The position numbers and the translations under genes are program-made. A stretch of 64,000 nucleotides of DNA from Bacteroidales bacterium (GTDB lineage Bacteria; Bacteroidota; Bacteroidia; Bacteroidales; JAFGXI01). Under the pieces are notes generated by a model, which saw only the letters and a program-made list of their open reading frames with translations, was not told where the DNA came from and ran no database searches. This document shows, one piece after another, positions 48,884 through 62,175 of this stretch (positions are counted from its first letter, which is position 1; each line of letters begins with the position of its first letter). Location: contig JAFGXI010000010.1 of NCBI GenBank assembly GCA_016936665.1, forward strand, positions 5,868 to 69,867, written 5' to 3'.

Positions 48884-49864
48884 ATGCAAAGCAGAATTAC
48901 AATTATCATACTTGGCGTTTTAGCTTTATTCTCATGTAAAAAAGAGAACGAAGACTATCCTCTTCCAAATAATAATTATCCTAACATTGCTGTCGATAGT
49001 TTAAATTATTCTTTTTGGTCGGAAGCAGGCCTCCCTTATTACGAAGGCTATTTCAATAGCGCTAATCAGGTTAAAAACTTTAATCTCAAACTTTATAAAA
49101 ATAAGCAATACCGCATTTTTTCATCTCAACAATTCGACGATACTACTTACGTTCGTCTAGCCCTTAAAAATGAAGATGGCAATACGATAACTCTATCGCA
49201 GGTTATAAACCATCAGTCCATTTTATATTTTAATAGTCCGTCTGATAAAACATACTTACTCAGCACGCAACTCGATGGAGATTATCATTTAAGTACCGAC
49301 TTTAAACTCTTTTTTGAAGAAAGACAATATAATACCTTGCTGTATAAACAATTCAATTGGAGTTATTACGGCAATTTTAAAGTCGAAGCAGATAGTTTGC
49401 ATTTTATACCTTCGGGAAGTTTTATGCAACGATGGTTACAAGTCGATTCATCAATAGAAAACAGTAAAAATATTAGCGTTGAGATATCTTCTGATAATGA
49501 ATTTACAAGCGAATTTGGATTTACATTTTCTGCATACAGAAACTCAGCTAATGGAGGGTATTCCGACGATAATATCGTACATGGCACACAAGTTTATTTT
49601 AAAAATGATAAGTTCTATGTTTACTATATTTCCGATAATGGCACATCGCTTTTATACAAAGGAAATTTAGGGAGTTGGTCTGCAATGCCTAATCGGCTGG
49701 TTTTAAATATTGAAACAGATTCTTCAGATTACTTACATAAACTCATCTACCTAAACAACATGTTGATTACTGAGGTGAACAATGTCGATTATAACGATTT
49801 TTATTTCGTATTTTCTGATCGAACTGAAGAAAGAATTTCAATTTCAGATCTTACAATAGAATAA
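48884..49864 (+). CDS. Hypothetical lipoprotein
   Basis: Lipobox LALFSC. 326 aa, with no recognised domain. Confidence 0.55.
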   Translation: MQSRITIIILGVLALFSCKKENEDYPLPNNNYPNIAVDSLNYSFWSEAGLPYYEGYFNSANQVKNFNLKLYKNKQYRIFSSQQFDDTTYVRLALKNEDGNTITLSQVINHQSILYFNSPSDKTYLLSTQLDGDYHLSTDFKLFFEERQYNTLLYKQFNWSYYGNFKVEADSLHFIPSGSFMQRWLQVDSSIENSKNISVEISSDNEFTSEFGFTFSAYRNSANGGYSDDNIVHGTQVYFKNDKFYVYYISDNGTSLLYKGNLGSWSAMPNRLVLNIETDSSDYLHKLIYLNNMLITEVNNVDYNDFYFVFSDRTEERISISDLTIE

Positions 49865-49900
49865 AAAAGCCTTCTGCAATTTGCAAAAGGCCAATCTTTT
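49865..49900. terminator. Imperfect bidirectional hairpin between convergent genes
   Basis: GCCTTcTGCA-ATT-TGCAaAAGGC, flanked by an A-run and a T-run. Confidence 0.5.
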
Positions 49901-49913
49901 AATTATTTATTTT

Positions 49914-50900
49914 TTACTTTCCGCTATCGGAAAAATATTTCATAAACTGAGCTCGCTCTAACATCATTGGATTTTTAATGTTTTTCTGATTCAATTTGCC
50001 TCTATATTCTTCAATTGAGGCATACTTTTTTTCATCCATCCATTGCTCTAATGCATGAACTGTTTCGGTAATATGAGAAGCTCCTTTTTCATAAATAGCA
50101 GAAACCATTTGTGTAGTAGTTGCCCCTACCAATAAATTACTAATCACTTCTTTAGCAGAGTGAACACCTGTGCTAGCCGATAAATCACAAGTAACTTTAC
50201 CGCTTAAAATGCTCATCCAGCGTAAAGTATTAGCGTTATCTTCTGCCTTTGAAAAGATTGGTGCAGCAACAATTTTTTCATGTTCGATATCTACAGCCGG
50301 GCTGTAAAATTTATTAAATAAAGTGATGCCTTTAATTCCCGTTTTTGACAATTCTAACATAAAATTGGCTAAACCAGAAAAATAACTGCTTAATTTAATT
50401 GCAACAGGAATTTTCACCACATTTAAAAGCTCTTTTACAATTCTTAAATAATTCTCCTCTAATGTTCTACCGTCTTTATCAAAGTCGGCAGGCATAACAA
50501 AAAGATTAACTTCTAGTGCATCGGCACCAGCTTGTTCTACATTTTTTGCAAAAGAAACCCATTCTGCATTGTCGAAACAATTAATACTAGCAATTACAGG
50601 AATGCTTACCGAGGATTTGGTATTTTTTATTAGCTGAATGTATTGATCTACAGAGTGCTTTTTCAAATAAAAACCTAAGTAATTTTCGATATGATCGAAG
50701 GTCCCTGACATGTTATTAACGCGCTCTGCATCAATATCCATCAAAATTTGCTCTTCAAATAAAGACTTTAAAATGATAGCTCCCGCACCGGCATCAGCCC
50801 ATTCTTTGTTTTTATCGGCATGATTAGTTAACTCCGAACTACCAACAATAATGGGATTTTTAAGCGTTAATCCTAAATATTTTGTTGTTAAATTAGCCAT
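49914..50900 (-). CDS. Dihydroorotate dehydrogenase-like FMN (TIM-barrel) protein lacking the canonical catalytic Cys/Ser loop; last gene of the Mrp-MBX-like operon
   Basis: DHOD class-1-like N-terminus (LGLTLKNPIIVGSSELT, IPVIASIN, GADALEVN). Where DHOD/DPD have N-L-S-C-P-N/H this protein reads NLFVMPAD. It has no C-terminal ferredoxin domain. Confidence 0.78.
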   Translation of the reverse strand: MANLTTKYLGLTLKNPIIVGSSELTNHADKNKEWADAGAGAIILKSLFEEQILMDIDAERVNNMSGTFDHIENYLGFYLKKHSVDQYIQLIKNTKSSVSIPVIASINCFDNAEWVSFAKNVEQAGADALEVNLFVMPADFDKDGRTLEENYLRIVKELLNVVKIPVAIKLSSYFSGLANFMLELSKTGIKGITLFNKFYSPAVDIEHEKIVAAPIFSKAEDNANTLRWMSILSGKVTCDLSASTGVHSAKEVISNLLVGATTTQMVSAIYEKGASHITETVHALEQWMDEKKYASIEEYRGKLNQKNIKNPMMLERAQFMKYFSDSGK

Positions 50901-50968
50901 TTTATATGTTTTTTAAGATTAAAAAAAGTTTGGCTAAGTTAAACTAGCTCAGCCAAACAATATAAAAA

Positions 50969-52774
50969 TTAACGTCCTTGATTTAAGAATTTATCAATAC
51001 CCATAGCTGCTCTGTGTCCGTTAGCAATACCATGAATTACGTCTGGTCCTTCAATAATATCGCCCCCTACAAATAACCAAGGTAAACCTTTAGCTTGGAA
51101 GTCTGCATCTACAACAATTCGACCTCTGTTATTAAATTCTATTTTAGATTTAATTTCTTCTGTTAAATAAGACAAGTCCATTCCTTGACCTATTGATTCG
51201 ATAACCATATCGCCTTCGAAAACGCGTTCTTCAGCTTGATCAAATTTTGGATTAAACATGCCTTTCTCATCGAATATCGATAGACATTTCCAAACTTTAA
51301 GCCCTTTAACTTTACCATCTTCGATGATGATTTCCTGAGGGCCGTATCCCGGAATTATAGAACAACCTTCTTCTCTTGCTTCAACAATTTCTTCTCTATC
51401 GGCAGGCATGTGCTCTTCGTCTTCTAGCGAAGTTGTAATCACATTAACTTTACCGAACTGTTGCATTTGAAGACGAGCCATAGAGCGAGTAATGTCCATT
51501 GCCACATTACCACCACCAATTACAACCACTCTTTCTTTTACAGGCACTGGTTTTTCGAGTACGATATCACGAAGTAAATCGACCGATTGGTAAACATTTT
51601 CGTTATCTGAACCGGGAATACGGGTCGAACGACCTAAATGTAAACCTGTGCCAGAGAATACTGCATCGTAATCTTTTTCTAACTGTTCCAGCGTGATGTC
51701 TGTTCCTATATTAACATTGTATTTAAATTCAACACCCAAGGCGGCGATATAATCCACATCTTTATCGATTTGGTCGTATGGTAAACGATATTCAGGAATA
51801 CCGTAACGCATCATACCCCCGGCTTTTGGTAATTTTTCGAAAATAGTACAAGAATACCCCAACAAGGCTAAATAATGTGCAGCTGATAATCCCGATGGAC
51901 CAGAACCAATGATAGCTATTTTTTTACCATTTTTAGCTAAATCGCCAGTACCTAGAATATCTTTATATTTATCGGTATCAGCCGGAATCTGATCGGCAAT
52001 ATAACGTTTTAACCAGCGGATCGATAATGCATCTCCAGTATGACCAACCGAACAAACATCTTCACATTTGTGCGTACAAATACGTCCACAAATTTCTGGA
52101 AGTGGATTAGTTTCGTATAACACACGCATACCTTCTTCCATATCGTCGTTACGAACTGCTTTAATGTATTCTGGAATACCCATATGCGCAGGACATGTTG
52201 CCGTACAAATACCGCAAGACACACATCTATCGGCCTCTTGCTGTGCCTGTTCTTTTGAATACCCTTTTACAAATTCTATAAATGAATCGCTACGCTCATC
52301 GGCATGTAATTCGCCCATATGAACGCGTTCTTTTCCGTAGAAGTTGTAATTTGGAACTGGCTTTCTCCAACCATCTTCTTTTTCGTACCAATCTTTAGGA
52401 TCAACTCCCGGAATAAATCTGAAGTTATCGGCATCGGTATCTACCCAAGTATATTCATTGGTTAATCGAAGCGAATCGGTTGTACAAATATCAACACAAA
52501 GCGCACACCAGCAACAACGACCATAATCAATCTTTGGTCTTAAGCCGCTGTCGCCACTTTTCGTGTCGATACCATCTACAGGTACCAAATCGATGGCTTG
52601 ATTTTCGCAAATTGCTTCACAAGTTCCACAACCAATACAAACATTGATGTCGTTATCGTGAAACCCCCTATATCTTGGTGCCGCTTCTCTTCCAATAGGG
52701 TTTTTAATGGTAACAGGATCTTTTAATACACCAGACCAAGCTGTAAACGGCGTAAATATATCTTTAATATTCAT
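50969..52774 (-). CDS. Fusion protein: NuoI/MbxN-like 2x[4Fe-4S] ferredoxin domain plus GltD/SudA/NfnB-like NAD(P)H-FAD oxidoreductase
   Basis: The N-terminal ~125 aa carry RYRGFH..CIGCGTCEAIC and CCWCALCVDIC (NuoI type). Next come the GltD-type Fe-S motifs CVSCGICTATCP and ICGRICTHKCEDVC. The FAD dinucleotide fold is KIAIIGSGPSGLSAA and the NAD(P)H fold is RVVVIGGGNVAMD. The C-terminus reads GGDIIEGPDVIHGIANGHRAA. Confidence 0.82.
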   Translation of the reverse strand: MNIKDIFTPFTAWSGVLKDPVTIKNPIGREAAPRYRGFHDNDINVCIGCGTCEAICENQAIDLVPVDGIDTKSGDSGLRPKIDYGRCCWCALCVDICTTDSLRLTNEYTWVDTDADNFRFIPGVDPKDWYEKEDGWRKPVPNYNFYGKERVHMGELHADERSDSFIEFVKGYSKEQAQQEADRCVSCGICTATCPAHMGIPEYIKAVRNDDMEEGMRVLYETNPLPEICGRICTHKCEDVCSVGHTGDALSIRWLKRYIADQIPADTDKYKDILGTGDLAKNGKKIAIIGSGPSGLSAAHYLALLGYSCTIFEKLPKAGGMMRYGIPEYRLPYDQIDKDVDYIAALGVEFKYNVNIGTDITLEQLEKDYDAVFSGTGLHLGRSTRIPGSDNENVYQSVDLLRDIVLEKPVPVKERVVVIGGGNVAMDITRSMARLQMQQFGKVNVITTSLEDEEHMPADREEIVEAREEGCSIIPGYGPQEIIIEDGKVKGLKVWKCLSIFDEKGMFNPKFDQAEERVFEGDMVIESIGQGMDLSYLTEEIKSKIEFNNRGRIVVDADFQAKGLPWLFVGGDIIEGPDVIHGIANGHRAAMGIDKFLNQGR

Positions 52775-52801: not shown

Positions 52802-53158
52802 TTATTTATTATTGTTCAAGACCATTGTTTTTCTGGATGCTATAAAAATGGATGTTAATGCCTTTGCTTCAGTTATTAATTCCTTAAGCAATTCTGGTTT
52901 AACTAATGCTTCATCTTTTATAAACTCTAACCAAAAAATACTTTCATCGGCCTCTTTAACGATATTTAATTTTGAAATAAAACTTTTCCCTGATTGTGCG
53001 ACACAAGCAACGCTATAAATATCTGCTACTGACGTTGAACATCTTATTATTTGACCACTGATATGTTTTCCTAAAGTATTTGTCGGCAAAGACAAACCCA
53101 ATTTAACACATCGGTGTGCAAATTCTTTTGTTCTCTCTATCAGTTCTTCTTTATTCAT
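52802..53158 (-). CDS. Four-helix-bundle protein (formerly 23S rRNA intervening-sequence protein family) inserted inside the operon
   Basis: 118 aa. The family pattern is ERTKEFAHRCVKL ... GKHISGQIIRCSTSVA ... SFISKLNIVKEADESIFWLEFI ... EAKALTSIFIASRKT. Confidence 0.8.
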   Translation of the reverse strand: MNKEELIERTKEFAHRCVKLGLSLPTNTLGKHISGQIIRCSTSVADIYSVACVAQSGKSFISKLNIVKEADESIFWLEFIKDEALVKPELLKELITEAKALTSIFIASRKTMVLNNNK

Positions 53159-53189: not shown

Positions 53190-54386
53190 TTAGCGTTCGA
53201 TTTCCGGAGGACAAGTTTGTAATGAAACCATTAAGGCATGTATATCAGCAATATTAGTATTGACCAATAAATCTTCTAACAATGCTACTCCATGCGTATA
53301 GCTTGGCCCTCTTAAATTAACTCTTCGAGGTTTATCAGAACCATCTGTAACGTAGTACATTCCGTACTCTCCACGGCCACTCTCTATTCTAACATAAGTT
53401 TCGCCTTTAGGGATACGCCAGTTCAAAACGTTAGGCATTTGCGCTCTGATATCGCCTTTTTCCGGCATTTTAGCCATAATCTGACGAATAAGATCTACCG
53501 TTTGAATGAGTTCTTGCCAGCGTACAAAAGTACGTGCATATATATCGCCCTCCTCAGCTGTAGGAGGATCGAAATCTAATTGATCGTAAAATAAATATGG
53601 ATTATCTTTTCGCACATCTCGTTTTACACCAGAAGCTCGAGCGGTTGTTCCAACCACACCATATTTATCAACCATTTCCTTAGTTACAATGCCTTGGCCA
53701 ATCGAACGTTTTTTGAAAATAGCATTATCAAACATCAATTTTTTAATTCTAACAATAAAATCATCGATGTCTTTTAAATTATCTTCCATACGTGCTTTAA
53801 AACCTTCTGGTAATAAACCTCTAACACCGCCAGGAATAATATACATATGATACACACGAGCACCCGTTAATTCCTCGAAACGATCTAAAATAAGGTCTCT
53901 TAAATAAACACCCCATTGCACACCAATACCTAAAGAATAAGTCCCCGCTTGACCAGGTACTCCTCTAAGTAAACCTTGGAGACGCGCCATCTCTAAAGAT
54001 AACATTCTTAACCATTTAGCCATATCTGGTATTTGTTTATCATAACCAGAAAGCTCTTCGGTACAAGCTGCAATTAAATATTCGTTGGTGTCGGGCTCGG
54101 CCACACACATACGAATACTTGTAGGGAAGCCTTGAACGAACAAACGACGCTCAATTAATTTTTCGAAACCTCTATGTAAGTAACCCACATGCGTTTTACC
54201 TTCAACAATCTCATCACCATTTAGCGTTAGTTCCATTGCCATATTACCGGTAACTCCGGGGTGATTAGGCCCTAACCATAATTTTGTGTATTGGTGTGAT
54301 GACAAATCTATATTTAAACTGCCATCCTCATTGACAGAAGGATATTTACTTCTATCAGGTTTGAATCCAAAAAAATTATTCAACAT
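53190..54386 (-). CDS. NuoD / group-4 hydrogenase large-subunit homolog of MbxL/MbsL type (no complete NiFe site)
   Basis: LGPNHPG..., GYLHRGFEKLIE and the length match the Complex1_49kDa fold. The NiFe CxxC positions read RMCVAE and QTCPPEIER-stop. Confidence 0.85.
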   Translation of the reverse strand: MLNNFFGFKPDRSKYPSVNEDGSLNIDLSSHQYTKLWLGPNHPGVTGNMAMELTLNGDEIVEGKTHVGYLHRGFEKLIERRLFVQGFPTSIRMCVAEPDTNEYLIAACTEELSGYDKQIPDMAKWLRMLSLEMARLQGLLRGVPGQAGTYSLGIGVQWGVYLRDLILDRFEELTGARVYHMYIIPGGVRGLLPEGFKARMEDNLKDIDDFIVRIKKLMFDNAIFKKRSIGQGIVTKEMVDKYGVVGTTARASGVKRDVRKDNPYLFYDQLDFDPPTAEEGDIYARTFVRWQELIQTVDLIRQIMAKMPEKGDIRAQMPNVLNWRIPKGETYVRIESGRGEYGMYYVTDGSDKPRRVNLRGPSYTHGVALLEDLLVNTNIADIHALMVSLQTCPPEIER

Positions 54387-54948
54387 TTTTATTCTTTTTA
54401 GCAGTTACAGGTTGATTAGGATATAATTTCTCTCTCATATAAGTTGCAGGGTCGTTTGTTGTACGGCCACCACGTGGGAAGTATGTTTTTTCTGCATACT
54501 CATGAGTATCGAAATCTCGTAGCATATGAGGCTTATCTGTCCATCCTTCGAGTACGAAATTCTCTTCGACTCTCGGACTGCCCGGAAATTGGATTCCAAA
54601 GGCTTCTCTAATCTCACGTTGGTAAGTCCAAACCTGCTTCCAAAGATGATGTGCAGAAGTCATAGTAGGATTTTCTCTTTCGATCATCACTCGAAGTGCC
54701 ACATCACATCTTTGTTGAGGGTTATTAAGGATGTACGTTAATTGGAATTTGTTGTCTTCAATCCAATCGGCGCAGCTCATCATTACAAAATGAGCAAATC
54801 CTTCGTAGTCTCTCATGTAAGTAATGGCTTCGATAACCAATTCCTTACTTATGGTTGCAAACACCATGTTATCGCGCTGATAAATGATATCTTGCAAAGC
54901 ATATTTTGTATTTAATTTTTCAACTAATTCTTTCATCTTTACATCCAT
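54376..54948 (-). CDS. NuoC / MbxK-like 30-kDa subunit
   Basis: 190 aa, located between the NuoB-like and NuoD-like genes. Complex1_30kDa-like core (HLWKQVWTYQREIREAFGIQFPGSP). Its stop overlaps the NuoD-like start by 11 nt. Confidence 0.78.
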   Translation of the reverse strand: MDVKMKELVEKLNTKYALQDIIYQRDNMVFATISKELVIEAITYMRDYEGFAHFVMMSCADWIEDNKFQLTYILNNPQQRCDVALRVMIERENPTMTSAHHLWKQVWTYQREIREAFGIQFPGSPRVEENFVLEGWTDKPHMLRDFDTHEYAEKTYFPRGGRTTNDPATYMREKLYPNQPVTAKKNKNVE

Positions 54949-54951
54949 TAT

Positions 54952-55674
54952 TTACCAGTTATAATCAGGCATATTCCAATCTTTGATAATCTTTTTTTGA
55001 TTTGCCTTATACTCATCAAAGTTTCTAGCATACTCATTTGCTTTTTCTGCTTTTCCTTCTTTGATAAGCTCTTTTAATTTTCCGAAACCTGCTAATAGTG
55101 CTTCAGGACGTGGCATACAACCTGCAATGTAAACATCGACAGGAATGTATTTGTCTAATCGATTAATCGTGCTATAACTATCGTAATACATTCCGCCGTT
55201 AATGGTACAGCTACCAAGCGCTATCACATATTTAGGAGAAGGCATTTGCTCGTAACTACGAATCACCCTTTTCAAGGTTTTTACCGATAAGTATCCTGAA
55301 ATAATGAAAGCATTCGATTGACGAGGCGTAGGACGCATTTGAACGCCAAAGCGAAACATATCATAACGAGGAGTCACCAAAGGAGGAATTTCAATACTTC
55401 CACATCCTGTTCCAAAACCTAATACCCAGATACTCTCTGATCTTGCCCAGTTTAAAAATTTCTCAACAATGGCATTTTTTGGCTTTTCTTCTTTTGGACG
55501 CTCACCACTAAAATAGTCGTAAAGCGGGTTAATTTTTATGATAGAACCATCGGGTGCTACCACTTCTCTAACTTCATCTTCAGGTCTAACAAATGTTTTT
55601 TCGCTATTCTTTGCATTTTGCTCAGAACGCTCTAACATTTCTTGTACCTTGCTATTTATATTTAGTTCAGACAT
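54952..55674 (-). CDS. NuoB / MbxJ-like Fe-S subunit with only three cysteines
   Basis: Oxidored_q6 pattern: GFGTGCGSIE, RPTPRQSNAFIISG, LGSCTINGGMYY, PVDVYIAGCMPRPEAL. It has a ~70-aa N-terminal extension. Confidence 0.85.
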   Translation of the reverse strand: MSELNINSKVQEMLERSEQNAKNSEKTFVRPEDEVREVVAPDGSIIKINPLYDYFSGERPKEEKPKNAIVEKFLNWARSESIWVLGFGTGCGSIEIPPLVTPRYDMFRFGVQMRPTPRQSNAFIISGYLSVKTLKRVIRSYEQMPSPKYVIALGSCTINGGMYYDSYSTINRLDKYIPVDVYIAGCMPRPEALLAGFGKLKELIKEGKAEKANEYARNFDEYKANQKKIIKDWNMPDYNW

Positions 55675-55692
55675 TTTATAATCTTCTTAAAA

Positions 55693-56601
55693 TTAGAAAC
55701 TGTACATTAAAATGGCAATGAAACCTAATAGTAGCGGAATCTTGAAAAACCAAGCTACCGATTGTTCTATTCTGAAACGAGGGAAAACCATACCTACGAA
55801 CACAGCATAGAAATATATTAGGAAACTTTTAATGATTAATTCAAACCAATTCGTAGCACCACCAAAAACCAAATTCATAAATAAAATGGTTTCCATTACG
55901 CCAAGAATATTTCCGCTAGTCATTAATACACCTAGATATGTTCCATGGTACTCTGTAGGAGGTCCAATTGGAATTTCGTTTGGTGCTTTTACTAAGTTAA
56001 AAGGAGAATATCCGAAAGCTCCTAATGCAGATAACATAATTGCGGCAGAGGCTACAGGATTAGTAAAAAATGACCAATGAAGAAAACCGCCTTGTTGAGC
56101 AGCAACGATTTCTGAAATTGATAAGGTTTGGTACTGAATAGCTAAAGCAATAATACCCATAGTCATTGGCAATTCAACAGCTGCGTGTTGTGCCAAACCT
56201 CTGGAAATACCGATAGCCGAGTGAGGTTGTCCGCCTTCACCGGCACCTAAAGCCATACCTAACATTCCAAATAATTGAAAGTATAAGATGAGAACCAAAT
56301 CCCCTTCAAATGAGAAGTTCATCCAAGCTTCTTTTCCGAATAAAATTGGCATAAATAAAAATAAACCAACAGCACCGGAAAAACGGAAAACTGGTCCTAA
56401 ATAGAACATTACACCATGTGTTAAAGTTGTTCGAACAGCAATATTTTTAATTAAATCGATCCATGGCTGACGAAAAGGAACGCCGTGACGTCCGGCCATG
56501 CGAGCTCCAATTTTTCTGAAAGTAACTCGCATTAACATTCCCCAGTTTAACACAATCATTAAACCGAGAAATGTATAAGCTATTTTTACGTATATATTCA
56601 T
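55693..56601 (-). CDS. NuoH / MbxM-like membrane subunit
   Basis: A polytopic membrane protein with the NuoH-type N-terminal loop RKIGARMAGRHGVPFRQPWIDLIKNI. The ATG at 56599-56601 is preferred over the TTG at 56616. Confidence 0.8.
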   Translation of the reverse strand: MNIYVKIAYTFLGLMIVLNWGMLMRVTFRKIGARMAGRHGVPFRQPWIDLIKNIAVRTTLTHGVMFYLGPVFRFSGAVGLFLFMPILFGKEAWMNFSFEGDLVLILYFQLFGMLGMALGAGEGGQPHSAIGISRGLAQHAAVELPMTMGIIALAIQYQTLSISEIVAAQQGGFLHWSFFTNPVASAAIMLSALGAFGYSPFNLVKAPNEIPIGPPTEYHGTYLGVLMTSGNILGVMETILFMNLVFGGATNWFELIIKSFLIYFYAVFVGMVFPRFRIEQSVAWFFKIPLLLGFIAILMYSF

Positions 56602-56605
56602 GTTA

Positions 56606-59600
56606 TTATCCTCCAATAATTACAAGGTAAGTGACTAATACAAACAAAACGAGGTGAAGCATATATGCTTGTCCATTTCCGCTGTAGATACGACGGGTAA
56701 AGCCTGCTGTATCGTGTAGCATTTCTGTGACTTTATCCCAGAATTTTTCGACTAATGGTATCGTAGCTGGCCAAACAGCCTTGTAGAAACCGGCAAACAC
56801 ATTCCATGCAATGTGCGTTGTTTCTGGTCTATCGGGTCTTTCACCAGAAAATACAATATCAAATTGTTTAAGTTTATGAGCCTTTCTAGTAGAAATAGCT
56901 AGGAATGCAAAAGCAATTGCAAATACACCAACAACAGTAATAAAGACTTTGGTACCACTCCAGTAACCCAACGCTGTACTTGCACTACCAGCAACCCAAT
57001 TCACTTGTCCATTAGGGAAGTATGGTGCTAATATCTCTCCAAGAGGTTGTAATACCCACTCAGGCTTAACAGAGAATACCATGATTCCCATAATTAAAAT
57101 ATAAATCGGAATTGCAAACCAAATAGAAATATCTTTAACATTTCGATGATTATCTTTTAACTGCCCCAAGAAGATGGTGTGAATTAATCGCCACAAGTAC
57201 AAGAAGGCAATACCTCCGGCAAAGAAAACGATTATCCCTTGGAAGTACCATCCTTTATCTAAAACAGCGTTATAGAATAACCACTTACCTGCAAAACCAG
57301 ATAATGGTGGCACTCCAGAAAGTGCAATAATACCAATTAGTACTGCAATAAATGCAAATGGCATTCTTGAGATTAGTCCTCCCATTTTATACATATCGTG
57401 AGTGCCCACTCTTAGTACAACTGCTCCAATCGTTAAGAAGAGGATTGCTTTGTACATAAAGTGATTAATAGAATAGGTAAAAGCTGTTAACCAACCTAAA
57501 TGTGTCATAATGGCTAAAGCAAACACTATATATCCTAACTGACCGATAGAAGAGTATGCTAACAAACGTTTTGCATCTTCTTGGAAAACAGCCATTAAGT
57601 TACCAACTAAAGCGGTAATAGCACCTACCCAACCTAAAGTATAAGCTAAGCCCGAGAATTGATTATCGGCAGCCCCCATACCAATTAATGCGAGGACTAA
57701 ACCAAATACACCGGCTTTAAGTAAGATCGCAGAAACCATCGGAGAAACATCAGATTCAGCTTCGCCGTGAGCACCAGGCAACCAAATATGCAAGCCTACA
57801 GAAGCTGTTTTAGTTAAGAAGCCAGCGATTAATAAACCATAAGCCCACTGTGGTAAATAAGTAATATGATTAATAATATCTAAGTCGGAACTTATTTGAC
57901 TTACTTGAGCCATTCCGAAAGCTGCTAATAATGCATAAGCTCCTCCAATTGAAAACAACATGTAGCTCAAACCATGTGGCATAGAGCGTTTACCTCGAAT
58001 AATTAAGAAATACGAACCGGCTGTCATTAATTCCCAACCATAAAAGAACTCCAAAGTTGTGTTAGCTTCGATAATTCCAGTAAGACCGGCATACATTAAA
58101 ATAGCTACTGGATAAAAACCGGAACGAGTTCCCTTATATGCGTAACCAGCAATTAATGCTAAAATTCCACCAACCATGAATATCACTTCGAAGATCAACC
58201 TCAAATTATCTAAACTTGGATAGACTGTGTAGAAATAATATGCCATTCCGGCAATAGCTAAAGTGTTCTTTATAAAAATTGGTAAGAAATCTAAAGCTAA
58301 TAACACGGCAACAAATAAGAATGGAATAAAATTAATTCCTGAACCAATTTCAGAAAGTTGAGCTGTGTAATAACCTATGCCATATAAACTTAAAGCAGCG
58401 ATCCAAACAGGAATAATTTTTGACCATTCAATTTTAACCGGTTCGATATGGTCGTTTTCGGCTTTAATAGCGTAGCCTAACCAACGGAATAAATAAACAG
58501 CTTCCATCATTGAACCAAACAAAATGGCAACAACCCATGCTATATTACCAGTTGCTGTTAAGTCCATTACCAAAGTCCATTTTGCGAAGAAAGATGGAAA
58601 TGGAGGAAATCCGATTAAAGCAAAAACAAAAGTTCCCATCAAGAATAAGAAAAATGGATGCTTACGAACAACCGACCAACCTTTTAATCCTTTCGATTTA
58701 ATAATTCCAGATAGCCAAAACAATCCGGCTTTTGCCAAATAATGAGAGATTAAAATTCCAAACGCAATGTAAATGGTATTTTCTCCTAAAATATCTTTAA
58801 ATCCAATAATTAGGGTTAATAAACCAAGCTGACCTATTGATGAGTACCCAAGCATACGACGTGTATTTTCTTGTTTGATACCTAAAAGGTTGCTTCCTAC
58901 AAAAGTTATTGCTCCAAGTAAGGAGATATAATAATTCCACTCAGGACCGGCAATTGCCATCAATTTATATAAAACATATAATGAAGCTGATGCTGATGCT
59001 CCAGAGATTACCGCCGATAAACCGGCATCGGAACCTTCGTAAACATCAAGCCCCCAACCATTAGCAGGAAAAGGCTTTAACTCCAAGATAACAGCCATCA
59101 TTATTAAGAAGATCGCTATTGAACCGCCTTTTACTAAATGTAAGTTTGATGTAATTAAGTCATCGATATTTAATGAGCCCACAAAGTAATACGCAAAAAT
59201 AACTCCGATAAGTAAGAAGCTAGAAATAACACTGGTTGCTAATATATATTTGAATCCGGCACCCATCGAGCGAGTACCACTTTCCAATAAAATTAAACCA
59301 GCAATTGAGATACTCGCTATTTCCATGAAAACAAATAGGTTGAAAATATCACGAGTCATAATCATAACGTTCAAGCCCATCAATAGAATTAGATATACTA
59401 CTTGAGCATTTGATCCTCTCTCCTTCAGACTGTTAAACATATAAATTCCGCCGACTAAGCCTATCGCATTGACCATTAAAGAGAAGAATGCCTCAAATGG
59501 ACCCATTAATAAGTTAATCGACAAAGGAGGCTGAAAACCTGCTGTAAATATATATTCGGGCAATTGATTACCAGAGTAAAAACCGGCAAACCACTGGAAC

Positions 59601-59731
59601 GAAATAAAAGTCATAAACGCAATGGCTGTTAGCACTAATCCTCCGGTAAAATTTCTACCCAATTTATTCAATACACCAATGGCGAATCCTACGCCTAGAG
59701 CTGTGGCTACAATGTAAATAGGTGTTACCAT
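56606..59731 (-). CDS. Double antiporter-like subunit: two NuoL/M/N-MrpD (Proton_antipo_M) modules fused in one 1041-aa protein (MbxH-MbxH' equivalent)
   Basis: There are two separate Proton_antipo_M-like cores. The first lies around NLFVFMEIASISIAGLIL...YILATSVISSFLL. The second lies around WLPGAHGEAESDVSPMVSAILLKAGVFGL...LAYSSIGQLGYI, and LGYSSIGQLGLL also occurs in the first half. Confidence 0.85.
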   Translation of the reverse strand: MVTPIYIVATALGVGFAIGVLNKLGRNFTGGLVLTAIAFMTFISFQWFAGFYSGNQLPEYIFTAGFQPPLSINLLMGPFEAFFSLMVNAIGLVGGIYMFNSLKERGSNAQVVYLILLMGLNVMIMTRDIFNLFVFMEIASISIAGLILLESGTRSMGAGFKYILATSVISSFLLIGVIFAYYFVGSLNIDDLITSNLHLVKGGSIAIFLIMMAVILELKPFPANGWGLDVYEGSDAGLSAVISGASASASLYVLYKLMAIAGPEWNYYISLLGAITFVGSNLLGIKQENTRRMLGYSSIGQLGLLTLIIGFKDILGENTIYIAFGILISHYLAKAGLFWLSGIIKSKGLKGWSVVRKHPFFLFLMGTFVFALIGFPPFPSFFAKWTLVMDLTATGNIAWVVAILFGSMMEAVYLFRWLGYAIKAENDHIEPVKIEWSKIIPVWIAALSLYGIGYYTAQLSEIGSGINFIPFLFVAVLLALDFLPIFIKNTLAIAGMAYYFYTVYPSLDNLRLIFEVIFMVGGILALIAGYAYKGTRSGFYPVAILMYAGLTGIIEANTTLEFFYGWELMTAGSYFLIIRGKRSMPHGLSYMLFSIGGAYALLAAFGMAQVSQISSDLDIINHITYLPQWAYGLLIAGFLTKTASVGLHIWLPGAHGEAESDVSPMVSAILLKAGVFGLVLALIGMGAADNQFSGLAYTLGWVGAITALVGNLMAVFQEDAKRLLAYSSIGQLGYIVFALAIMTHLGWLTAFTYSINHFMYKAILFLTIGAVVLRVGTHDMYKMGGLISRMPFAFIAVLIGIIALSGVPPLSGFAGKWLFYNAVLDKGWYFQGIIVFFAGGIAFLYLWRLIHTIFLGQLKDNHRNVKDISIWFAIPIYILIMGIMVFSVKPEWVLQPLGEILAPYFPNGQVNWVAGSASTALGYWSGTKVFITVVGVFAIAFAFLAISTRKAHKLKQFDIVFSGERPDRPETTHIAWNVFAGFYKAVWPATIPLVEKFWDKVTEMLHDTAGFTRRIYSGNGQAYMLHLVLFVLVTYLVIIGG

Positions 59732-60105
59732 TTTAGATCGTTAAATTTGTTGATTTCTAATGATTTCTTAGCTTTATAAAGCTTCATAGCATAAGCCAAC
59801 ATTAATGCTGTAATACCAAAACCGATAACAATGGCTGTTAAAACCAAAGCTTGAGGAACTGGATCTACAATTTTATCTGCTACATTATAATTTCCTTCAG
59901 TAGCAATGGTTGCATCAATAATTGGTGCTGTTTTTCCTTTAACATAGCCTAAACTCACAATTAATAGATTAATACCTGTATTCAAGATTGAAAAACCGAT
60001 AATAATTTTAATAATATTTTTTTGAGTCAAGACTCCCCAAAAGCCTACAATAATTAGCAAAAAGCCAATTATCAAGCCGATATTTCCCAGATTTATAAAT
60101 TCCAT
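59725..60105 (-). CDS. MrpC/MnhC / NuoK-like small membrane subunit (MbxG equivalent)
   Basis: 126 aa with three TM helices and an MnhC-like tail (VDPVPQALVLTAIVIGFGITALMLA). Confidence 0.8.
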   Translation of the reverse strand: MEFINLGNIGLIIGFLLIIVGFWGVLTQKNIIKIIIGFSILNTGINLLIVSLGYVKGKTAPIIDATIATEGNYNVADKIVDPVPQALVLTAIVIGFGITALMLAYAMKLYKAKKSLEINKFNDLKW

Positions 60106-60106
60106 T

Positions 60107-60808
60107 TTATAACTCTTTTTGTGATTTTTGATACTTGTTGAGGATATTAGAAATCTCTGCTCCTACTTTTAACCCAACAAAACTGTATATAATAGGTATA
60201 GCACCTGCACTAAATAATTCGCCAAACTTACCCAAGCCAATAATTTTATTGTCGAGGAAACCTCCGGCTAATAAAATACCTAATATCCCAATTATTACAA
60301 ATGAAACCCCTGAAATACTCTCTACCCAGTGAATTACATTGTAATTTAATTTGATGTTTGGATTGGCTAATATCATTAAAGCAACACCCGTTGCGATAAT
60401 CGCTCCACCTTGGAAGCCTCCTCCAGGAGTTAAGTGACCATTTATGAACACATAAATTCCAAACAAGAAAATTACAGGAATAAGAATCTTTGATGCCGTT
60501 TCCAACAACTCAGAGGTATCTCTATGTTCGATGGTTTTTTCAAAATCCTCATCTTTAAGTTTTAAGAAGAATGCGATAATAGATGCTGTAAGGAATAAAA
60601 TAGTTACCTCACCAAGCGTATCGAAGCCCCTGTATGTTACAACTACAGCAGTAACTAAATTAGCGGCACCAACCTCTTCTGCACCTTTAGTTGCGAAATG
60701 CTCAGAAATTCCCGATAAAGAATCTCTAAGTTCGTATCCGTCGTACAAGCCGTAAAATAAATAGGCCATTACGAGCAATACTAAGGTCATTAATGTATTT
60801 TTAAGCAT
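60107..60808 (-). CDS. MnhB-domain membrane subunit (MbhE/MbhF-MrpB equivalent)
   Basis: Contains NLVTAVVVTYRGFDTLGEVTILF and GHLTPGGGFQGGAIIATG, both signatures of the MnhB family. Confidence 0.8.
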   Translation of the reverse strand: MLKNTLMTLVLLVMAYLFYGLYDGYELRDSLSGISEHFATKGAEEVGAANLVTAVVVTYRGFDTLGEVTILFLTASIIAFFLKLKDEDFEKTIEHRDTSELLETASKILIPVIFLFGIYVFINGHLTPGGGFQGGAIIATGVALMILANPNIKLNYNVIHWVESISGVSFVIIGILGILLAGGFLDNKIIGLGKFGELFSAGAIPIIYSFVGLKVGAEISNILNKYQKSQKEL

Positions 60809-61058
60809 TGGATCTTTTTATTTTGTTAAGTACATAAAAGAAAATCAAAGTCGACAATCCGCTACCAATAGAGGCTTCTGTCATAGCAACATCGGGAGCC
60901 GACATTAAAATGTACAAGACCGATGCAAATAATGACACAACTCCGGCAGCAATAACCGCAACCGAAAGTTTCTTATTCAGCATTGCTACAAAAGACAAAG
61001 CAAGACTTACAATGCCAAGTACAATTGCAATGATTATATAGAGTAACTCGCTATTCAT
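60801..61058 (-). CDS. MbhD-like small membrane subunit
   Basis: 85 aa with three TM helices and the APDVAMTEASIGSGLST motif typical of the MbhD / MrpA C-terminal region. Confidence 0.72.
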   Translation of the reverse strand: MNSELLYIIIAIVLGIVSLALSFVAMLNKKLSVAVIAAGVVSLFASVLYILMSAPDVAMTEASIGSGLSTLIFFYVLNKIKRSNA

Positions 61059-61425
61059 TTTCTGGTTCTTTTACTATGTTATTATTAATATCCTCTTTAA
61101 GCTTATCAGTTTTAGTAAGCTTAGTAAGCGGAACCTTCATAAAGTAAGCCGCACGCATTAAAACGTGAGATGATACGGGGTTTGTTAAAAGAATAAAGAT
61201 GATTAACACCAAAACTCTACCAACCCAGTTTCCATCGCCCCAATTTTCGTACTGATATAGTCCTACGCCAATAAACGAGACAATAGCGCCCAGCGTAGAG
61301 GCTTTCGTTCCGGTTTGTACACGATTATATACATCCGGCATCCTGAGCAATCCTATTGCTGAAACCAACAAGGAAAAAGCTCCCATGAGCAACATTACTG
61401 CTCCTAACCATTTAATCCATTCCAT
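61051..61425 (-). CDS. MrpG/MnhG subunit
   Basis: GLLRMPDVYNRVQTGTKASTLG is the MnhG signature region. Confidence 0.85.
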   Translation of the reverse strand: MEWIKWLGAVMLLMGAFSLLVSAIGLLRMPDVYNRVQTGTKASTLGAIVSFIGVGLYQYENWGDGNWVGRVLVLIIFILLTNPVSSHVLMRAAYFMKVPLTKLTKTDKLKEDINNNIVKEPENE

Positions 61426-61427
61426 AT

Positions 61428-61694
61428 CTACAAACCTTTTTGAATGTATTTAGCAACTACAATCACTCCTATAAAGCTTAATAAGCCATATACTATAGCC
61501 ACATCAAAGTAAATCATTCGATTACTAAGCGCAGCAACAATGCTTATAATCACTAAAGTGGTGATTGTTAACGAATCGAAAGCCACAACTCTATCAACGA
61601 TAGATGGTCCCTTCGAAAAACGAATCATAGCTAATAGCAAAGCGATAGTCATCATTGCTACAGCAACAAATACTAGAGTATCCGGACTAATCAT
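61428..61694 (-). CDS. MrpF/MnhF subunit
   Basis: MrpF pattern: LAMIRFSKGPSIVDRVVAFDSL. The ATG at 61692-61694 is preferred and overlaps the MrpE stop by 8 nt. Confidence 0.8.
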   Translation of the reverse strand: MISPDTLVFVAVAMMTIALLLAMIRFSKGPSIVDRVVAFDSLTITTLVIISIVAALSNRMIYFDVAIVYGLLSFIGVIVVAKYIQKGL

Positions 61695-62175
61695 AAAGCA
61701 CCTCCAAATATTTTTCAAATTTACTAACTAATTCTTTGGTTGCAGTTTCCACATCGGTGTGCTCAACATTAATCCAGTGAATGTAGAACGTGTCGCCTTC
61801 TACCTGCAATGTAAATGTGCCTGGCGTCAATGTGATTGAGTCTGCTAAAATTAATCGAGCCATTTTAGACTTTAATCGTGTTTTCACCTTAACAATACCC
61901 GGATTAATAGGTAAACTAGGACTCAACACACGTTTAGTGACATCGATGTTGGCTTTAATTAACTCAATTAAAAAAACACCTAAATACAAAAATGTGTATA
62001 AAAATGCCTTTGGCGTTAAGTTGATGCTTGTGAACAACTCACACTTAGAGCAAAAAATGAAGCTTAAGGCTATGGATAAACCGGAGCCAATCAATAGATT
62101 GATCGGGTCTAAAGTCCAATTAAGTAGCAGCCAAGCTATCATCAATACGACAAATGAAACGAACAAATTTTTCAT
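61687..62175 (-). CDS. MrpE/MnhE subunit; first gene of the operon
   Basis: Two N-terminal TM helices and the MnhE signature ARLILADSITLTPGTFTL. Confidence 0.85.
   Translation of the reverse strand: MKNLFVSFVVLMIAWLLLNWTLDPINLLIGSGLSIALSFIFCSKCELFTSINLTPKAFLYTFLYLGVFLIELIKANIDVTKRVLSPSLPINPGIVKVKTRLKSKMARLILADSITLTPGTFTLQVEGDTFYIHWINVEHTDVETATKELVSKFEKYLEVLYD

What the first reader, a model, noticed from the sequence alone, without database searches (positions are those of the whole stretch)
49914..50900. DHOD-like FMN protein without the catalytic Cys/Ser loop, paired with a GltD-like protein as in dihydropyrimidine dehydrogenase
Seen in the sequence: the 328-aa protein has a class-1 DHOD-like TIM-barrel sequence. 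Where DHOD 1A/1B and DPD/PreA have the active-site loop N-L-S-C-P-N/H, it reads E-V-N-L-F-V-M-P-A-D. It has no C-terminal 2x[4Fe-4S] domain.

Established knowledge: a GltD-like protein plus a DHOD-like protein (PreT/PreA, or mammalian DPD as a fusion) forms NAD(P)H-dependent dihydropyrimidine dehydrogenase. In that enzyme the loop Cys is the catalytic acid.

Inference: the two terminal genes together look like a rearranged DPD-type module. The ferredoxin domain has moved to the N-terminus of the GltD-like subunit, where it doubles as the NuoI-like subunit. Its substrate chemistry probably differs from that of dihydroorotate or dihydrouracil.
Basis: partly seen in the sequence, partly recalled or inferred. 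Interest (0 to 1): 0.55.

Follow-up and report, generated by a model that had tools for sequence, protein, structure and literature searches.

The report
Cys-less DHOD-like flavoprotein ending MBS-like operon
The gene encodes an FMN-barrel protein that looks like a pyrimidine enzyme but lacks its catalytic residue; it belongs to a large, named but untested family, and here it ends an operon for a sulfur-reductase-like membrane ion pump fed by an NAD(P)H flavoprotein.

Summary
Window 49914-50900 (minus strand) encodes a 328-aa DHOD-fold protein. Its active-site loop reads E-V-N-L-F-V-M-P-A-D where DHOD and DPD have N-L-S-C-P-N/H, and it has no Fe-S domain.

It is not the cell's DHOD. The genome has a genuine quinone-dependent PyrD elsewhere.

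The protein is an ordinary member of NCBIfam NF005741, "DHOD-like protein", which I take to be clade X2 of Barba et al. 2013. None of 59 diverse members has a Cys at the catalytic position. The FMN-binding Lys, Asn and Gly residues are kept.

The DPD-like pairing is partly supported:
- All six type-A clusters found in this bacterial family place the gene right after the NuoI-GltD fusion.
- So do 45 of 60 related metagenomic operons.
- The sister clade of the Cys-less family is physically fused to GltD-like reductases, but it keeps the catalytic Cys.

Other findings limit the reading:
- The family also pairs with FNR-like genes, and pairs or fuses with PFOR.
- 15 of 60 operons end with a CBS or rubrerythrin-like gene, or with neither, in place of it.
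- Thermotoga maritima has the fusion but no such protein.
- A terminator-like hairpin separates the gene from the operon.

This scan has flagged the same family several times before, next to PFOR in other genomes. Its substrate is still unknown.

The parts
49914..50900 (-). DHOD-like FMN TIM-barrel protein, 328 aa, member of NF005741. The catalytic Cys is replaced (F134-V135).
   Evidence: NF005741 scores 386.8 bits against a cut-off of 303. AF2 model has pLDDT 94.4. Foldseek matches DPD and DHODA at TM about 0.7, E 1e-16.
49868..49892 (-). Terminator-like hairpin plus T-run, 22 nt after the DHOD-like stop codon. Likely end of the transcription unit.
   Evidence: Consensus scan. The next ORF (48884-49864) is convergent.
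50921..50957 (-). 10-bp hairpin with a 9-nt loop followed by C+T7, inside the 68-nt spacer between the fusion gene and the DHOD-like gene. Possible internal attenuator or terminator.
   Evidence: The spacer folds at -16.1 kcal/mol, z = -3.3. All five type-A spacers from same-family genomes (78-128 nt, different sequences) also fold into a hairpin, several followed by a T-run; the 44-nt spacer of a type-B cluster (L074) does not.
50969..52774 (-). NuoI/MbsN-like 2x[4Fe-4S] domain fused to a GltD/NfnB-like protein (Fer4_20 + FAD/NAD(P)H), 601 aa. Proposed electron partner.
   Evidence: Pfam and NCBIfam results. Residues 9-145 match PDB 6u8y_N at E 3.8e-21; residues 148-599 match NfnB 5jca_L at E 4.5e-74.
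52802..53158 (-). Four-helix-bundle (TIGR02436) gene inserted in the operon. Not part of the redox machinery.
   Evidence: It was not detected in the orthologous clusters, whose NuoD-to-fusion gaps are too short to hold it.
53190..56616 (-). NuoD-, NuoC-, NuoB- and NuoH-like subunits of the MBS/Mbx-like module.
   Evidence: Pfam Complex1_49kDa, Complex1_30kDa, Oxidored_q6 and NADHdh.
56606..62175 (-). Fused double MrpD/NuoN-like antiporter subunit (1041 aa) and small Mrp-type membrane subunits.
   Evidence: ORF list. Proton_antipo_M matches twice. The best NCBIfam models are the Thermococcales Mbx-type PRK08668 and PRK08377.

Best explanation
The protein is an FMN-binding accessory redox subunit or partner of the NuoI-GltD flavoprotein that caps this MBS/Mbx-like ion-pumping complex. 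It is not a pyrimidine enzyme.

Shown: it has the DHOD/DPD barrel. It keeps the residues that hold FMN (K45, N132, K169, N196, G245, G259-A260, S267). It lacks the catalytic Ser-Cys and two of the four pyrimidine-binding Asn. It is syntenic with the fusion gene.

Inferred: it docks on the Fe-S chain of the fusion protein, as PreA docks on PreT and as PyrD docks on PyrK. The wiring would then be NAD(P)H - FAD - [4Fe-4S] clusters - FMN, as in DPD, with the same Fe-S chain also leading through the NuoB-like cluster into the membrane module. The FMN site would be a second two-electron site that reduces (or oxidises) a still unknown, non-pyrimidine substrate X.

The family's other partners are FNR-like reductases and PFOR, by adjacency and by fusion. 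These are all electron-input modules. That fits a common 'output reductase' role fed from NAD(P)H or pyruvate.
For: - Family and fold.
- Residue mapping to DHODA, DHODB and DPD.
- Synteny: all six type-A clusters in same-family genomes have the gene directly after the fusion, as does a 46%-identical cluster of another Bacteroidota family (L074). So do 43 of 60 metagenomic loci with room downstream (within 600 nt), plus 2 more a little further on.
- Mbx-linked copies fall in at least three separate clades of the family tree, which implies repeated recruitment.
- Rosetta-stone fusions: about ten protein clusters (at 90% identity) of roughly 860-aa DHOD-like + GltD-like fusion proteins form the sister group of the Cys-less family. 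Full-length PFOR is fused to a Cys-less NF005741 domain scoring 419-470 bits.
- FNR-like + DHOD-like two-gene units occur in 9 loci.
- Precedent for a DHOD barrel taking electrons from a partner's Fe-S cluster: DHODB PyrD-PyrK (PDB 1ep1-3, established knowledge).
- A separate real pyrD exists (NF003652, 493 bits).
Against: - No physical or biochemical evidence exists. Complex modelling was not possible with these tools.
- 15 of 60 related operons lack the gene. 13 of those end with a CBS-pair or rubrerythrin-like gene.
- The type-B clusters of three sister genomes end at the fusion gene.
- T. maritima has the fusion (NF010590 above cut-off) but no NF005741 protein. The protein is therefore dispensable for the core complex.
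- The gene is set off by a 68-nt spacer with a terminator-like hairpin, and the five same-family type-A clusters have one too. This could mean separate or reduced expression.
- The GltD-fused sister clade keeps the catalytic Cys, so it is not direct evidence for the Cys-less proteins.
- Most family members in this order have no GltD-like neighbour.
Confidence: 0.5

Rival explanations
1. The protein is a pure electron-transfer adaptor with no small-molecule substrate. Its FMN acts like a built-in flavodoxin. It would relay single electrons between low-potential Fe-S chains (NuoI-type here, PFOR elsewhere) and another redox protein such as ferredoxin, flavodoxin, rubrerythrin-type acceptors or PFOR itself.
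For: - The catalytic acid is lost in all 59 family representatives examined.
- An aromatic residue (F/Y134) replaces the loop Ser in 43 of 59 family members and 46 of 47 Mbx-linked copies. It could stack on the flavin.
- The pyrimidine-binding Asn67 loop is replaced by two long helices.
- In PFOR-fused members even the K45 equivalent is replaced by P, H, Y, S, R or A.
- Rubrerythrin-like genes occupy the same operon position in some DHOD-like-free operons.
Against: - Stand-alone FNR-like + DHOD-like pairs and solitary copies need some terminal acceptor.
- N132 and N196, which contact the pyrimidine in DHOD and DPD, are nearly invariant or invariant.
- No coordinates were available, so pocket occlusion was not tested.
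Confidence: 0.2
2. The protein is an independent soluble enzyme that merely neighbours the operon. It would be transcribed on its own or after partial termination, and it would work with another reductase or directly with a metabolite, without binding the complex.
For: - A terminator-like hairpin lies in the spacer here, and the five same-family type-A clusters each have a hairpin in theirs.
- The other junctions of the operon overlap or are tight.
- Most family members in this order have unrelated neighbours: a YggS-like gene upstream in 11 loci, or nothing recurrent.
- In this genome the second copy plus its FNR-like gene lies next to the type-B cluster, but in three sister genomes the two are unlinked.
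Against: - The position directly after the fusion gene on the same strand persists down to about 42-46% protein identity, and it is found for copies from different clades of the family.
- No promoter-like site was detected in the spacer by the sigma-70 scan, which is not suited to Bacteroidota.
Confidence: 0.17
3. The protein is a genuine dihydroorotate or dihydropyrimidine dehydrogenase subunit that uses a different catalytic residue.
For: - DHOD fold with FMN residues kept, and a PreT-like neighbour.
- C108 is invariant in the 47 Mbx-linked copies.
Against: - All PyrD and PreA equivalog models fall far below cut-off: 89.7 against 269, and 84.6 against 335.
- Ser-Cys and two substrate Asn are missing across the family.
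- C108 aligns with a Cys of DPD (I-M-C) and is G or A in 21 of 59 family members. From memory, that DPD Cys is not catalytic.
- The genome has its own class-2 PyrD.
Confidence: 0.03

Closest known systems
NCBIfam NF005741 / PRK07565 'dihydroorotate dehydrogenase-like protein'. From memory this is CDD cd04739 DHOD_like. I take it to be clade X2 of Barba et al. 2013 (PMC4016543).
   Same: The protein scores above the family cut-off. It has the same Cys-less loop and the family motifs S-L-F-E-E-Q and F-N-R/K. Barba et al. already guessed a PreT-like partner.
   Different: Published and earlier-scan contexts put the family next to PFOR. Here it follows a NuoI-GltD fusion in an MBS/Mbx-like operon, and the genome's own PFOR (C17) has no such neighbour. 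The Mbx-linked clade is a separate, well-supported branch (99% local support, FastTree) with K45, C108 and F134 nearly invariant.
Dihydropyrimidine dehydrogenase: PreT/PreA in E. coli and the fused DPD of mammals (PDB 1h7w).
   Same: A GltD-like NAD(P)H/FAD/2x[4Fe-4S] component is combined with a DHOD-fold FMN component and a 2x[4Fe-4S] ferredoxin-type domain. K574, N668, K709 and N736 have equivalents. DPD chains are among the top structural matches.
   Different: There is no Cys671 and no S670. There is no own C-terminal ferredoxin domain. The ferredoxin-type domain belongs to the MbsN/NuoI family and sits on the GltD-like protein. PreA model NF006183 scores 84.6 against a cut-off of 335. 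A real PreT/PreA-like pair looks different (L078).
Class 1B DHOD, PyrD-PyrK (PDB 1ep1).
   Same: It is the best profile match among solved structures (E 9.8e-27). It is a precedent for a DHOD barrel whose FMN exchanges electrons with a partner subunit's Fe-S cluster. The paralogue in this genome is paired with an FNR-superfamily protein, as PyrD is with PyrK.
   Different: The catalytic Cys and the N-x-x-G-L-x-N substrate loop are absent. The FNR-like partner hits only Pfam NAD_binding_1 and resembles Fpr-type ferredoxin-NADP+ reductase; no 2Fe-2S domain was detected.
MBS (formerly Mbx) membrane-bound sulfane reductase of Pyrococcus furiosus (PDB 6u8y), and bacterial 'mbx-like' operons with a gltD-related subunit (Degli Esposti 2015, PMC4758237).
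   Same: Mrp-type plus NuoH/B/C/D/I-type genes are present, and the N-terminal domain of the fusion matches MbsN best. The GltD-type replacement of NuoI and the rubrerythrin end gene were both described in that paper and are seen here in related operons.
   Different: From memory, no DHOD-like subunit is part of MBS. The passage of that paper I read describes the gltD-related flavoprotein and a rubrerythrin end gene but no DHOD-like gene. T. maritima lacks it.

Membership tests
NF005741 DHOD-like protein | Whole-protein HMM score above the curated cut-off (303 bits) | tested here: met
   386.8 bits over residues 1-325.
NF005741 DHOD-like protein | Family-typical conserved residues (S46, F48, E49, E50, N107, N132, K169, F195-N196-R/K197, G245, G259, R316) and a Cys-less loop | tested here: met
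   All are present except R197, which is K (K in 4 of 59 members), and K254, which is S.
Class 1 DHOD (PyrD 1A/1B) | Catalytic Cys in N-L-S-C-P-N | tested here: not met
   The query has F134-V135 at the Ser-Cys positions. 0 of 59 family members have Cys there.
Class 1 DHOD (PyrD 1A/1B) | Equivalog HMM score above cut-off | tested here: not met
   NF005574 scores 89.7 against 269. TIGR01037 scores 86.7 against 270. NF002702 scores 52.7 against 301.
Class 1 DHOD (PyrD 1A/1B) | FMN-binding Lys pair and phosphate-binding Gly motifs | tested here: met
   K45, K169, G245 and G259-A260 align with K43, K164 and the G-rich motifs of DHODA, and with K574 and K709 of DPD. This rests on alignment only; no cofactor was modelled.
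Class 1 DHOD (PyrD 1A/1B) | It is the organism's DHOD | tested here: not met
   A class-2 quinone-dependent PyrD lies at G000:C32:245899-246774 and scores 493 bits on NF003652, cut-off 267.
DPD / PreA | Catalytic Cys671 equivalent and a C-terminal 2x[4Fe-4S] domain | tested here: not met
   V135 aligns with C671. The protein has two Cys in all and ends after one extra helix. NF006183 scores 84.6 against 335.
DPD / PreA | Adjacent PreT/GltD-like partner gene | tested here: met
   The upstream gene carries Fer4_20 + Pyr_redox_2. The synteny is conserved.
Clade X2 of Barba et al. 2013 | Close neighbour of a PFOR gene | tested here: not met
   The own PFOR at C17:1423-4923 has no NF005741 neighbour; the only two copies lie at C21 and C18. 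Other branches of the family do neighbour or fuse to PFOR. I did not test the identity of X2 with NF005741 on the authors' own sequences.
Subunit of the MBS/Mbx-type complex | Present wherever the complex is present | tested here: not met
   It is absent downstream in 15 of 60 related loci and in the type-B clusters of G004, G005 and G007. T. maritima has the NF010590 fusion but no NF005741 protein.
Subunit of the MBS/Mbx-type complex | Physical association with the complex | not testable with these tools

The most novel reading that the evidence does not exclude
The Cys-less DHOD-like barrel would be the catalytic output subunit of a so far undescribed respiratory enzyme. An MBS-type ion pump would carry a peripheral arm that is a DPD-like NAD(P)H:X oxidoreductase (NuoI-GltD + FMN barrel). 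Ion translocation would then be coupled to electron flow between NAD(P)H, a membrane-side acceptor and a soluble substrate X bound at the FMN, possibly by bifurcation at the NfnB-like FAD. More broadly, NF005741 would be a universal plug-in FMN reductase module that serves PFOR, FNR-like and GltD-like electron donors in many phyla. It would act on one common, unidentified metabolite or on an oxidant such as O2 or peroxide.
Probability: 0.25. Interest if true: 0.75.

Novelty: new member of a known kind. Interest (0 to 1): 0.42.

Why it matters
NF005741 is a very large family with no tested function.
- At least 619 clusters at 50% identity match at E <= 1e-30.
- 79 of 201 sampled genomes of this phylum carry it.
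- Synechococcus elongatus and Bacteroides thetaiotaomicron carry it too.

It sits beside the central low-potential redox enzymes of anaerobes: PFOR, GltD/Nfn-like flavoproteins and, as shown here, MBS-like ion pumps.

Knowing that it is not DHOD prevents wrong pathway calls. JGI labels many members 'dihydroorotate dehydrogenase (fumarate)'.

The Mbx-linked copies, the FNR-paired copies and the natural fusions give a concrete set of two-protein systems in which the unknown substrate could be found.

For this window alone the result is modest. It is a typical family member in a context I did not find described in the papers searched.

Tried and rejected
- My single genome-contig scan used one protein and returned only one weak, irrelevant locus. 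As a result I got no organism names and no loci from other phyla (Thermotogota, Desulfobacterota).
- The look-up of sequencing runs listed no RNA holder. Co-transcription could not be examined and read laying was not used.
- Paper searches for 'dihydroorotate dehydrogenase-like' + Mbx, 'Mbx-like', TM1216-TM1218, sll0744 and nifJ + DHOD found no functional study.
- Rejected: the gene as the only pyrD.
- Rejected: a compensating Cys or Ser elsewhere in the loop. Positions 143-144 are often S or T in the family but are D-G here.
- Rejected: C108 as a substitute catalytic residue. It aligns with a Cys of DPD and is G or A in 21 of 59 members.
- Rejected: my first count of '8 of 8 clusters with the gene'. 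The type-B cluster of this genome sits next to a DHOD-like + FNR-like pair that is unlinked from the type-B cluster in three sister genomes.
- I did not fold a natural fusion, because a domain-permuted protein cannot be compared with DPD by sequence-ordered structure alignment.
Full report
**1. What is there.**
Window 49914-50900 holds a 328-codon ORF on the minus strand. It is the last gene of a co-directional minus-strand series:
- small Mrp-type subunits (62175-59725);
- a fused double MrpD-like subunit (59731-56606);
- NuoH-, NuoB-, NuoC- and NuoD-like genes (56616-53190);
- an inserted four-helix-bundle gene (53158-52802);
- a 601-aa fusion of a NuoI/MbsN-like 2x[4Fe-4S] domain with a GltD/NfnB-like flavoprotein (52774-50969).

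A convergent ORF and a terminator-like hairpin (49892-49868) follow the gene.

**2.
- Pfam finds only a weak DHO_dh match (48.5 bits).
- The curated PyrD 1A/1B, archaeal PyrD, class-2 PyrD and PreA models all score far below their cut-offs.
- NF005741 'dihydroorotate dehydrogenase-like protein' scores 386.8 bits against a cut-off of 303.
- Alignments to L. lactis DHODA, DHODB and pig DPD put E130-V-N-L-F-V-M-P-A-D139 on E-L-N-L/I-S-C-P-N/H. F134 replaces the Ser and V135 replaces the catalytic Cys (Cys130 in DHODA, Cys671 in DPD).
- There are two Cys in the whole protein and no ferredoxin domain.
- An AlphaFold2 model built on 59 diverse homologues is confident (pLDDT 94.4, pTM 0.92). It is a DHOD/DPD-type barrel (Foldseek E about 1e-16, TM about 0.7 to DPD and DHODA).
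- In the model, the stretch between strands 2 and 3 forms two long helices (residues 49-63 and 69-97). In DHODs this stretch carries the N-x-x-G-L-x-N substrate loop.
- One extra C-terminal helix (311-325) carries the nearly invariant R316.

**3. Which catalytic and cofactor residues remain.**
I used 59 representatives at 31-46% identity to the query, drawn from a search of 1.84 billion cluster representatives. That search gave 619 clusters at E <= 1e-30.

| Query position | Equivalent in DHODA / DPD | Conservation in 59 representatives |
|---|---|---|
| K169 | K164 / K709 | invariant |
| N196 | N193 / N736 | invariant |
| G245, G259 | G-rich FMN phosphate motifs | invariant |
| N132 | N127 / N668 | 57 of 59 |
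| K45 | K43 / K574 | 38 of 59, and 46 of 47 operon-linked copies |
| 134 | the Ser before the catalytic Cys | Y or F in 43 of 59 |
| 135 | C130 / C671 | never Cys |

No other loop position has a conserved Cys or Ser. The FMN site is therefore kept. The proton-transfer residue and half of the pyrimidine-binding Asn network are gone, and this is true of the whole family. The family has its own conserved polar residues of unknown role: S46, E49, E50, N107, W114, R/K197, D202, D204, K254 and R316.

**4. It is not the cell's DHOD.**
The genome is 2.97 Mb and 99.9% complete. It encodes a quinone-dependent class-2 PyrD (NF003652, 493 bits) on another contig. It also encodes a second NF005741 paralogue (415 bits). 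That copy sits between an FNR-like gene (266 aa, Fpr-like; no Fe-S domain detected) and a second Mrp/Nuo-like cluster with its own NuoI-GltD fusion, which I call type B.

**5. How constant is the pairing with the GltD-like fusion?**
- In 41 genomes of the same order, 34 carry NF005741 genes, often two to five per genome.
- I fetched 62 of these loci.
- The five same-family genomes examined that carry an orthologue (59-71% identity) show exactly the window's arrangement: double MrpD, NuoH, B, C, D, NuoI-GltD, DHOD-like.
- A cluster from another family of the phylum (DHOD-like 46% identical) shows the same end.
- A metagenome scan with the NuoI-like part of the fusion returned 80 loci (the best of 547) at 64-86% identity.
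- Of the 60 loci with enough downstream sequence, 43 have the DHOD-like gene within 600 nt and 2 have it a little further on.
- 15 lack it. 13 of those have a CBS-pair gene or a rubrerythrin/ferritin-like gene in its place.
- The rubrerythrin ending of 'mbx-like' operons with a gltD-related subunit was already described by Degli Esposti 2015 (PMC4758237).
- The type-B cluster ends at the fusion gene in three sister genomes. Their DHOD-like + FNR-like pair lies on another contig. The adjacency in this genome is therefore recent or accidental.
- Only 3 of 301 sampled genomes of the phylum have such a fusion at all.
- T. maritima has the fusion, and the NF010590 model scores above its cut-off there. 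It has no NF005741 protein.
- Conclusion: the gene is a frequent, repeatedly recruited but dispensable companion of this type of complex.

**6. The family has other partners.**
- In the same order I found nine FNR-like + DHOD-like pairs.
- One clade sits next to genes of about 1180 aa, the size of PFOR; I did not annotate them.
- One clade sits behind a YggS-like gene (11 loci).
- There are also solitary copies.
- A search for longer proteins found two kinds of natural fusion.
  - (a) Full-length PFOR (TIGR02176, up to 1785 bits) carries a C-terminal NF005741 domain (419-470 bits). That domain has the same Cys-less loop.
  - (b) Proteins of about 860 aa combine an N-terminal DHOD-like domain with a GltD-like reductase. 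This domain has the family motif K-S-L-F-E-E/D but keeps N-x-S-C-P-H.
- In a FastTree tree rooted on PyrD 1B and PreA-like sequences, the GltD-fused, Cys-retaining group is the sister of all Cys-less members (supports 97-99). The Cys-less members split into a PFOR-linked branch and a branch holding the Mbx-linked and FNR-linked copies.
- The Mbx-linked copies lie in at least three places in the family tree.

**7. Literature and earlier notes.**
Barba et al. 2013 (PMC4016543) described a clade X2 of the DHODase/DHPDase superfamily. It lies next to PFOR in 69 species, with a preT-like gene beside it in 13 of them. They guessed that X2 pairs with a PreT paralogue.

Earlier follow-ups in this scan found the PFOR + DHOD-like pair in many phyla. 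I confirmed this only through the fusions and the neighbours above.

In Synechocystis the nifJ-sll0743-sll0744 unit is induced under dark microoxic conditions (PMC11368403).

I found no paper that tests the protein's function, and none that mentions it in an Mbx-like operon.

**8. Most likely mechanism.**
Shown: an FMN-type barrel without the DHOD/DPD acid, syntenic with an NAD(P)H/FAD/Fe-S protein.

Inferred: it binds that protein and exchanges electrons with its Fe-S chain, as PreA does with PreT and PyrD with PyrK. This gives a DPD-like path NAD(P)H - FAD - [4Fe-4S]n - FMN on top of the MBS-like membrane module.

All three kinds of partner (GltD-like, FNR-like, PFOR) are electron-input enzymes. 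The simplest common role is therefore an FMN 'output' site for an unknown acceptor X. I give this 0.5.

Rivals:
- an FMN relay with no small-molecule substrate (0.2);
- an independent enzyme that only neighbours the operon (0.17);
- a true DHOD or DPD (0.03).

The remainder is left for an inactive structural protein or something not considered.

A 68-nt spacer with a strong hairpin and a T-run precedes the gene. The five same-family type-A clusters have equivalent hairpins with unrelated sequences. This points to attenuated or separate expression. It is the main sequence-level argument for the 'independent enzyme' rival.

**9. Verdict.**

What this work adds:
- the link to MBS/Mbx-like operons, with counts;
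- the Cys-retaining GltD-fused sister clade;
- the evidence that the protein is dispensable.

The unsolved question, what this very common flavoprotein reduces, stays open and is worth an experiment. This window is not a special case of it.

Noticed in passing
window 50921-50957 (minus strand); spacers in L034-L038: A terminator-like hairpin plus T-run lies between the NuoI-GltD gene and the DHOD-like gene. The five type-A spacers from same-family genomes (78-128 nt) have unrelated sequences but each folds into a hairpin, several with a T-run. All other junctions in the operon are tight.
   Followed up: partly
L006 8495-17978 (G000:C18): The same genome carries a second, type-B Mrp/NuoHBCD/NuoI-GltD cluster (separate MrpD genes; fusion 39-50% identical). 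It is directly followed by a second DHOD-like gene and an Fpr-like FNR gene. In sister genomes G004, G005 and G007 the cluster and the pair are on different contigs.
   Followed up: yes
proteins P0281-P0284, P0287, P0288, P0290, P0291, P0293, P0299: Proteins of about 860 aa (metagenomic; one labelled Candidatus Brocadiia) have an N-terminal DHOD-like barrel that keeps N-x-S-C-P-H, fused to a GltD-like reductase with a C-terminal extension. The domain order is the reverse of DPD. They may be domain-permuted DPD-like enzymes.
   Followed up: partly
proteins P0271-P0280, P0285, P0286, P0289: Full-length or partial PFOR (NifJ) carries a C-terminal Cys-less NF005741 domain. In these the K45 equivalent is P, H, Y, S, R or A.
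   Followed up: partly
L101 6250-6714, L162 11844-12326, L143 11788-12249, L149 6894-7403 and similar: In related operons without a DHOD-like gene, the position after the fusion gene is taken by a CBS-pair protein of about 155 aa (7 loci in the similarity cluster, one of them behind a DHOD-like gene) or by a rubrerythrin/ferritin-like protein (6 loci).
   Followed up: partly
L015 10432-11112 and 10 other loci of the order: A YggS-like PLP protein gene lies directly upstream, on the same strand, of solitary DHOD-like genes in 11 loci. In L015 it sits with DUF1015, 2-hydroxyacid dehydrogenase and class-V aminotransferase genes, and homologues of some of these recur at a few other loci.
   Followed up: no
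G000:C17:1423-4923 (L164): The genome's PFOR (1875.8 bits on TIGR02176) has no DHOD-like neighbour, unlike PFOR genes in some relatives.
   Followed up: partly
L089 11980-13383: In one metagenomic operon, two ORFs of 233 and 225 aa with no Pfam match lie between the fusion gene and the DHOD-like gene.
   Followed up: no
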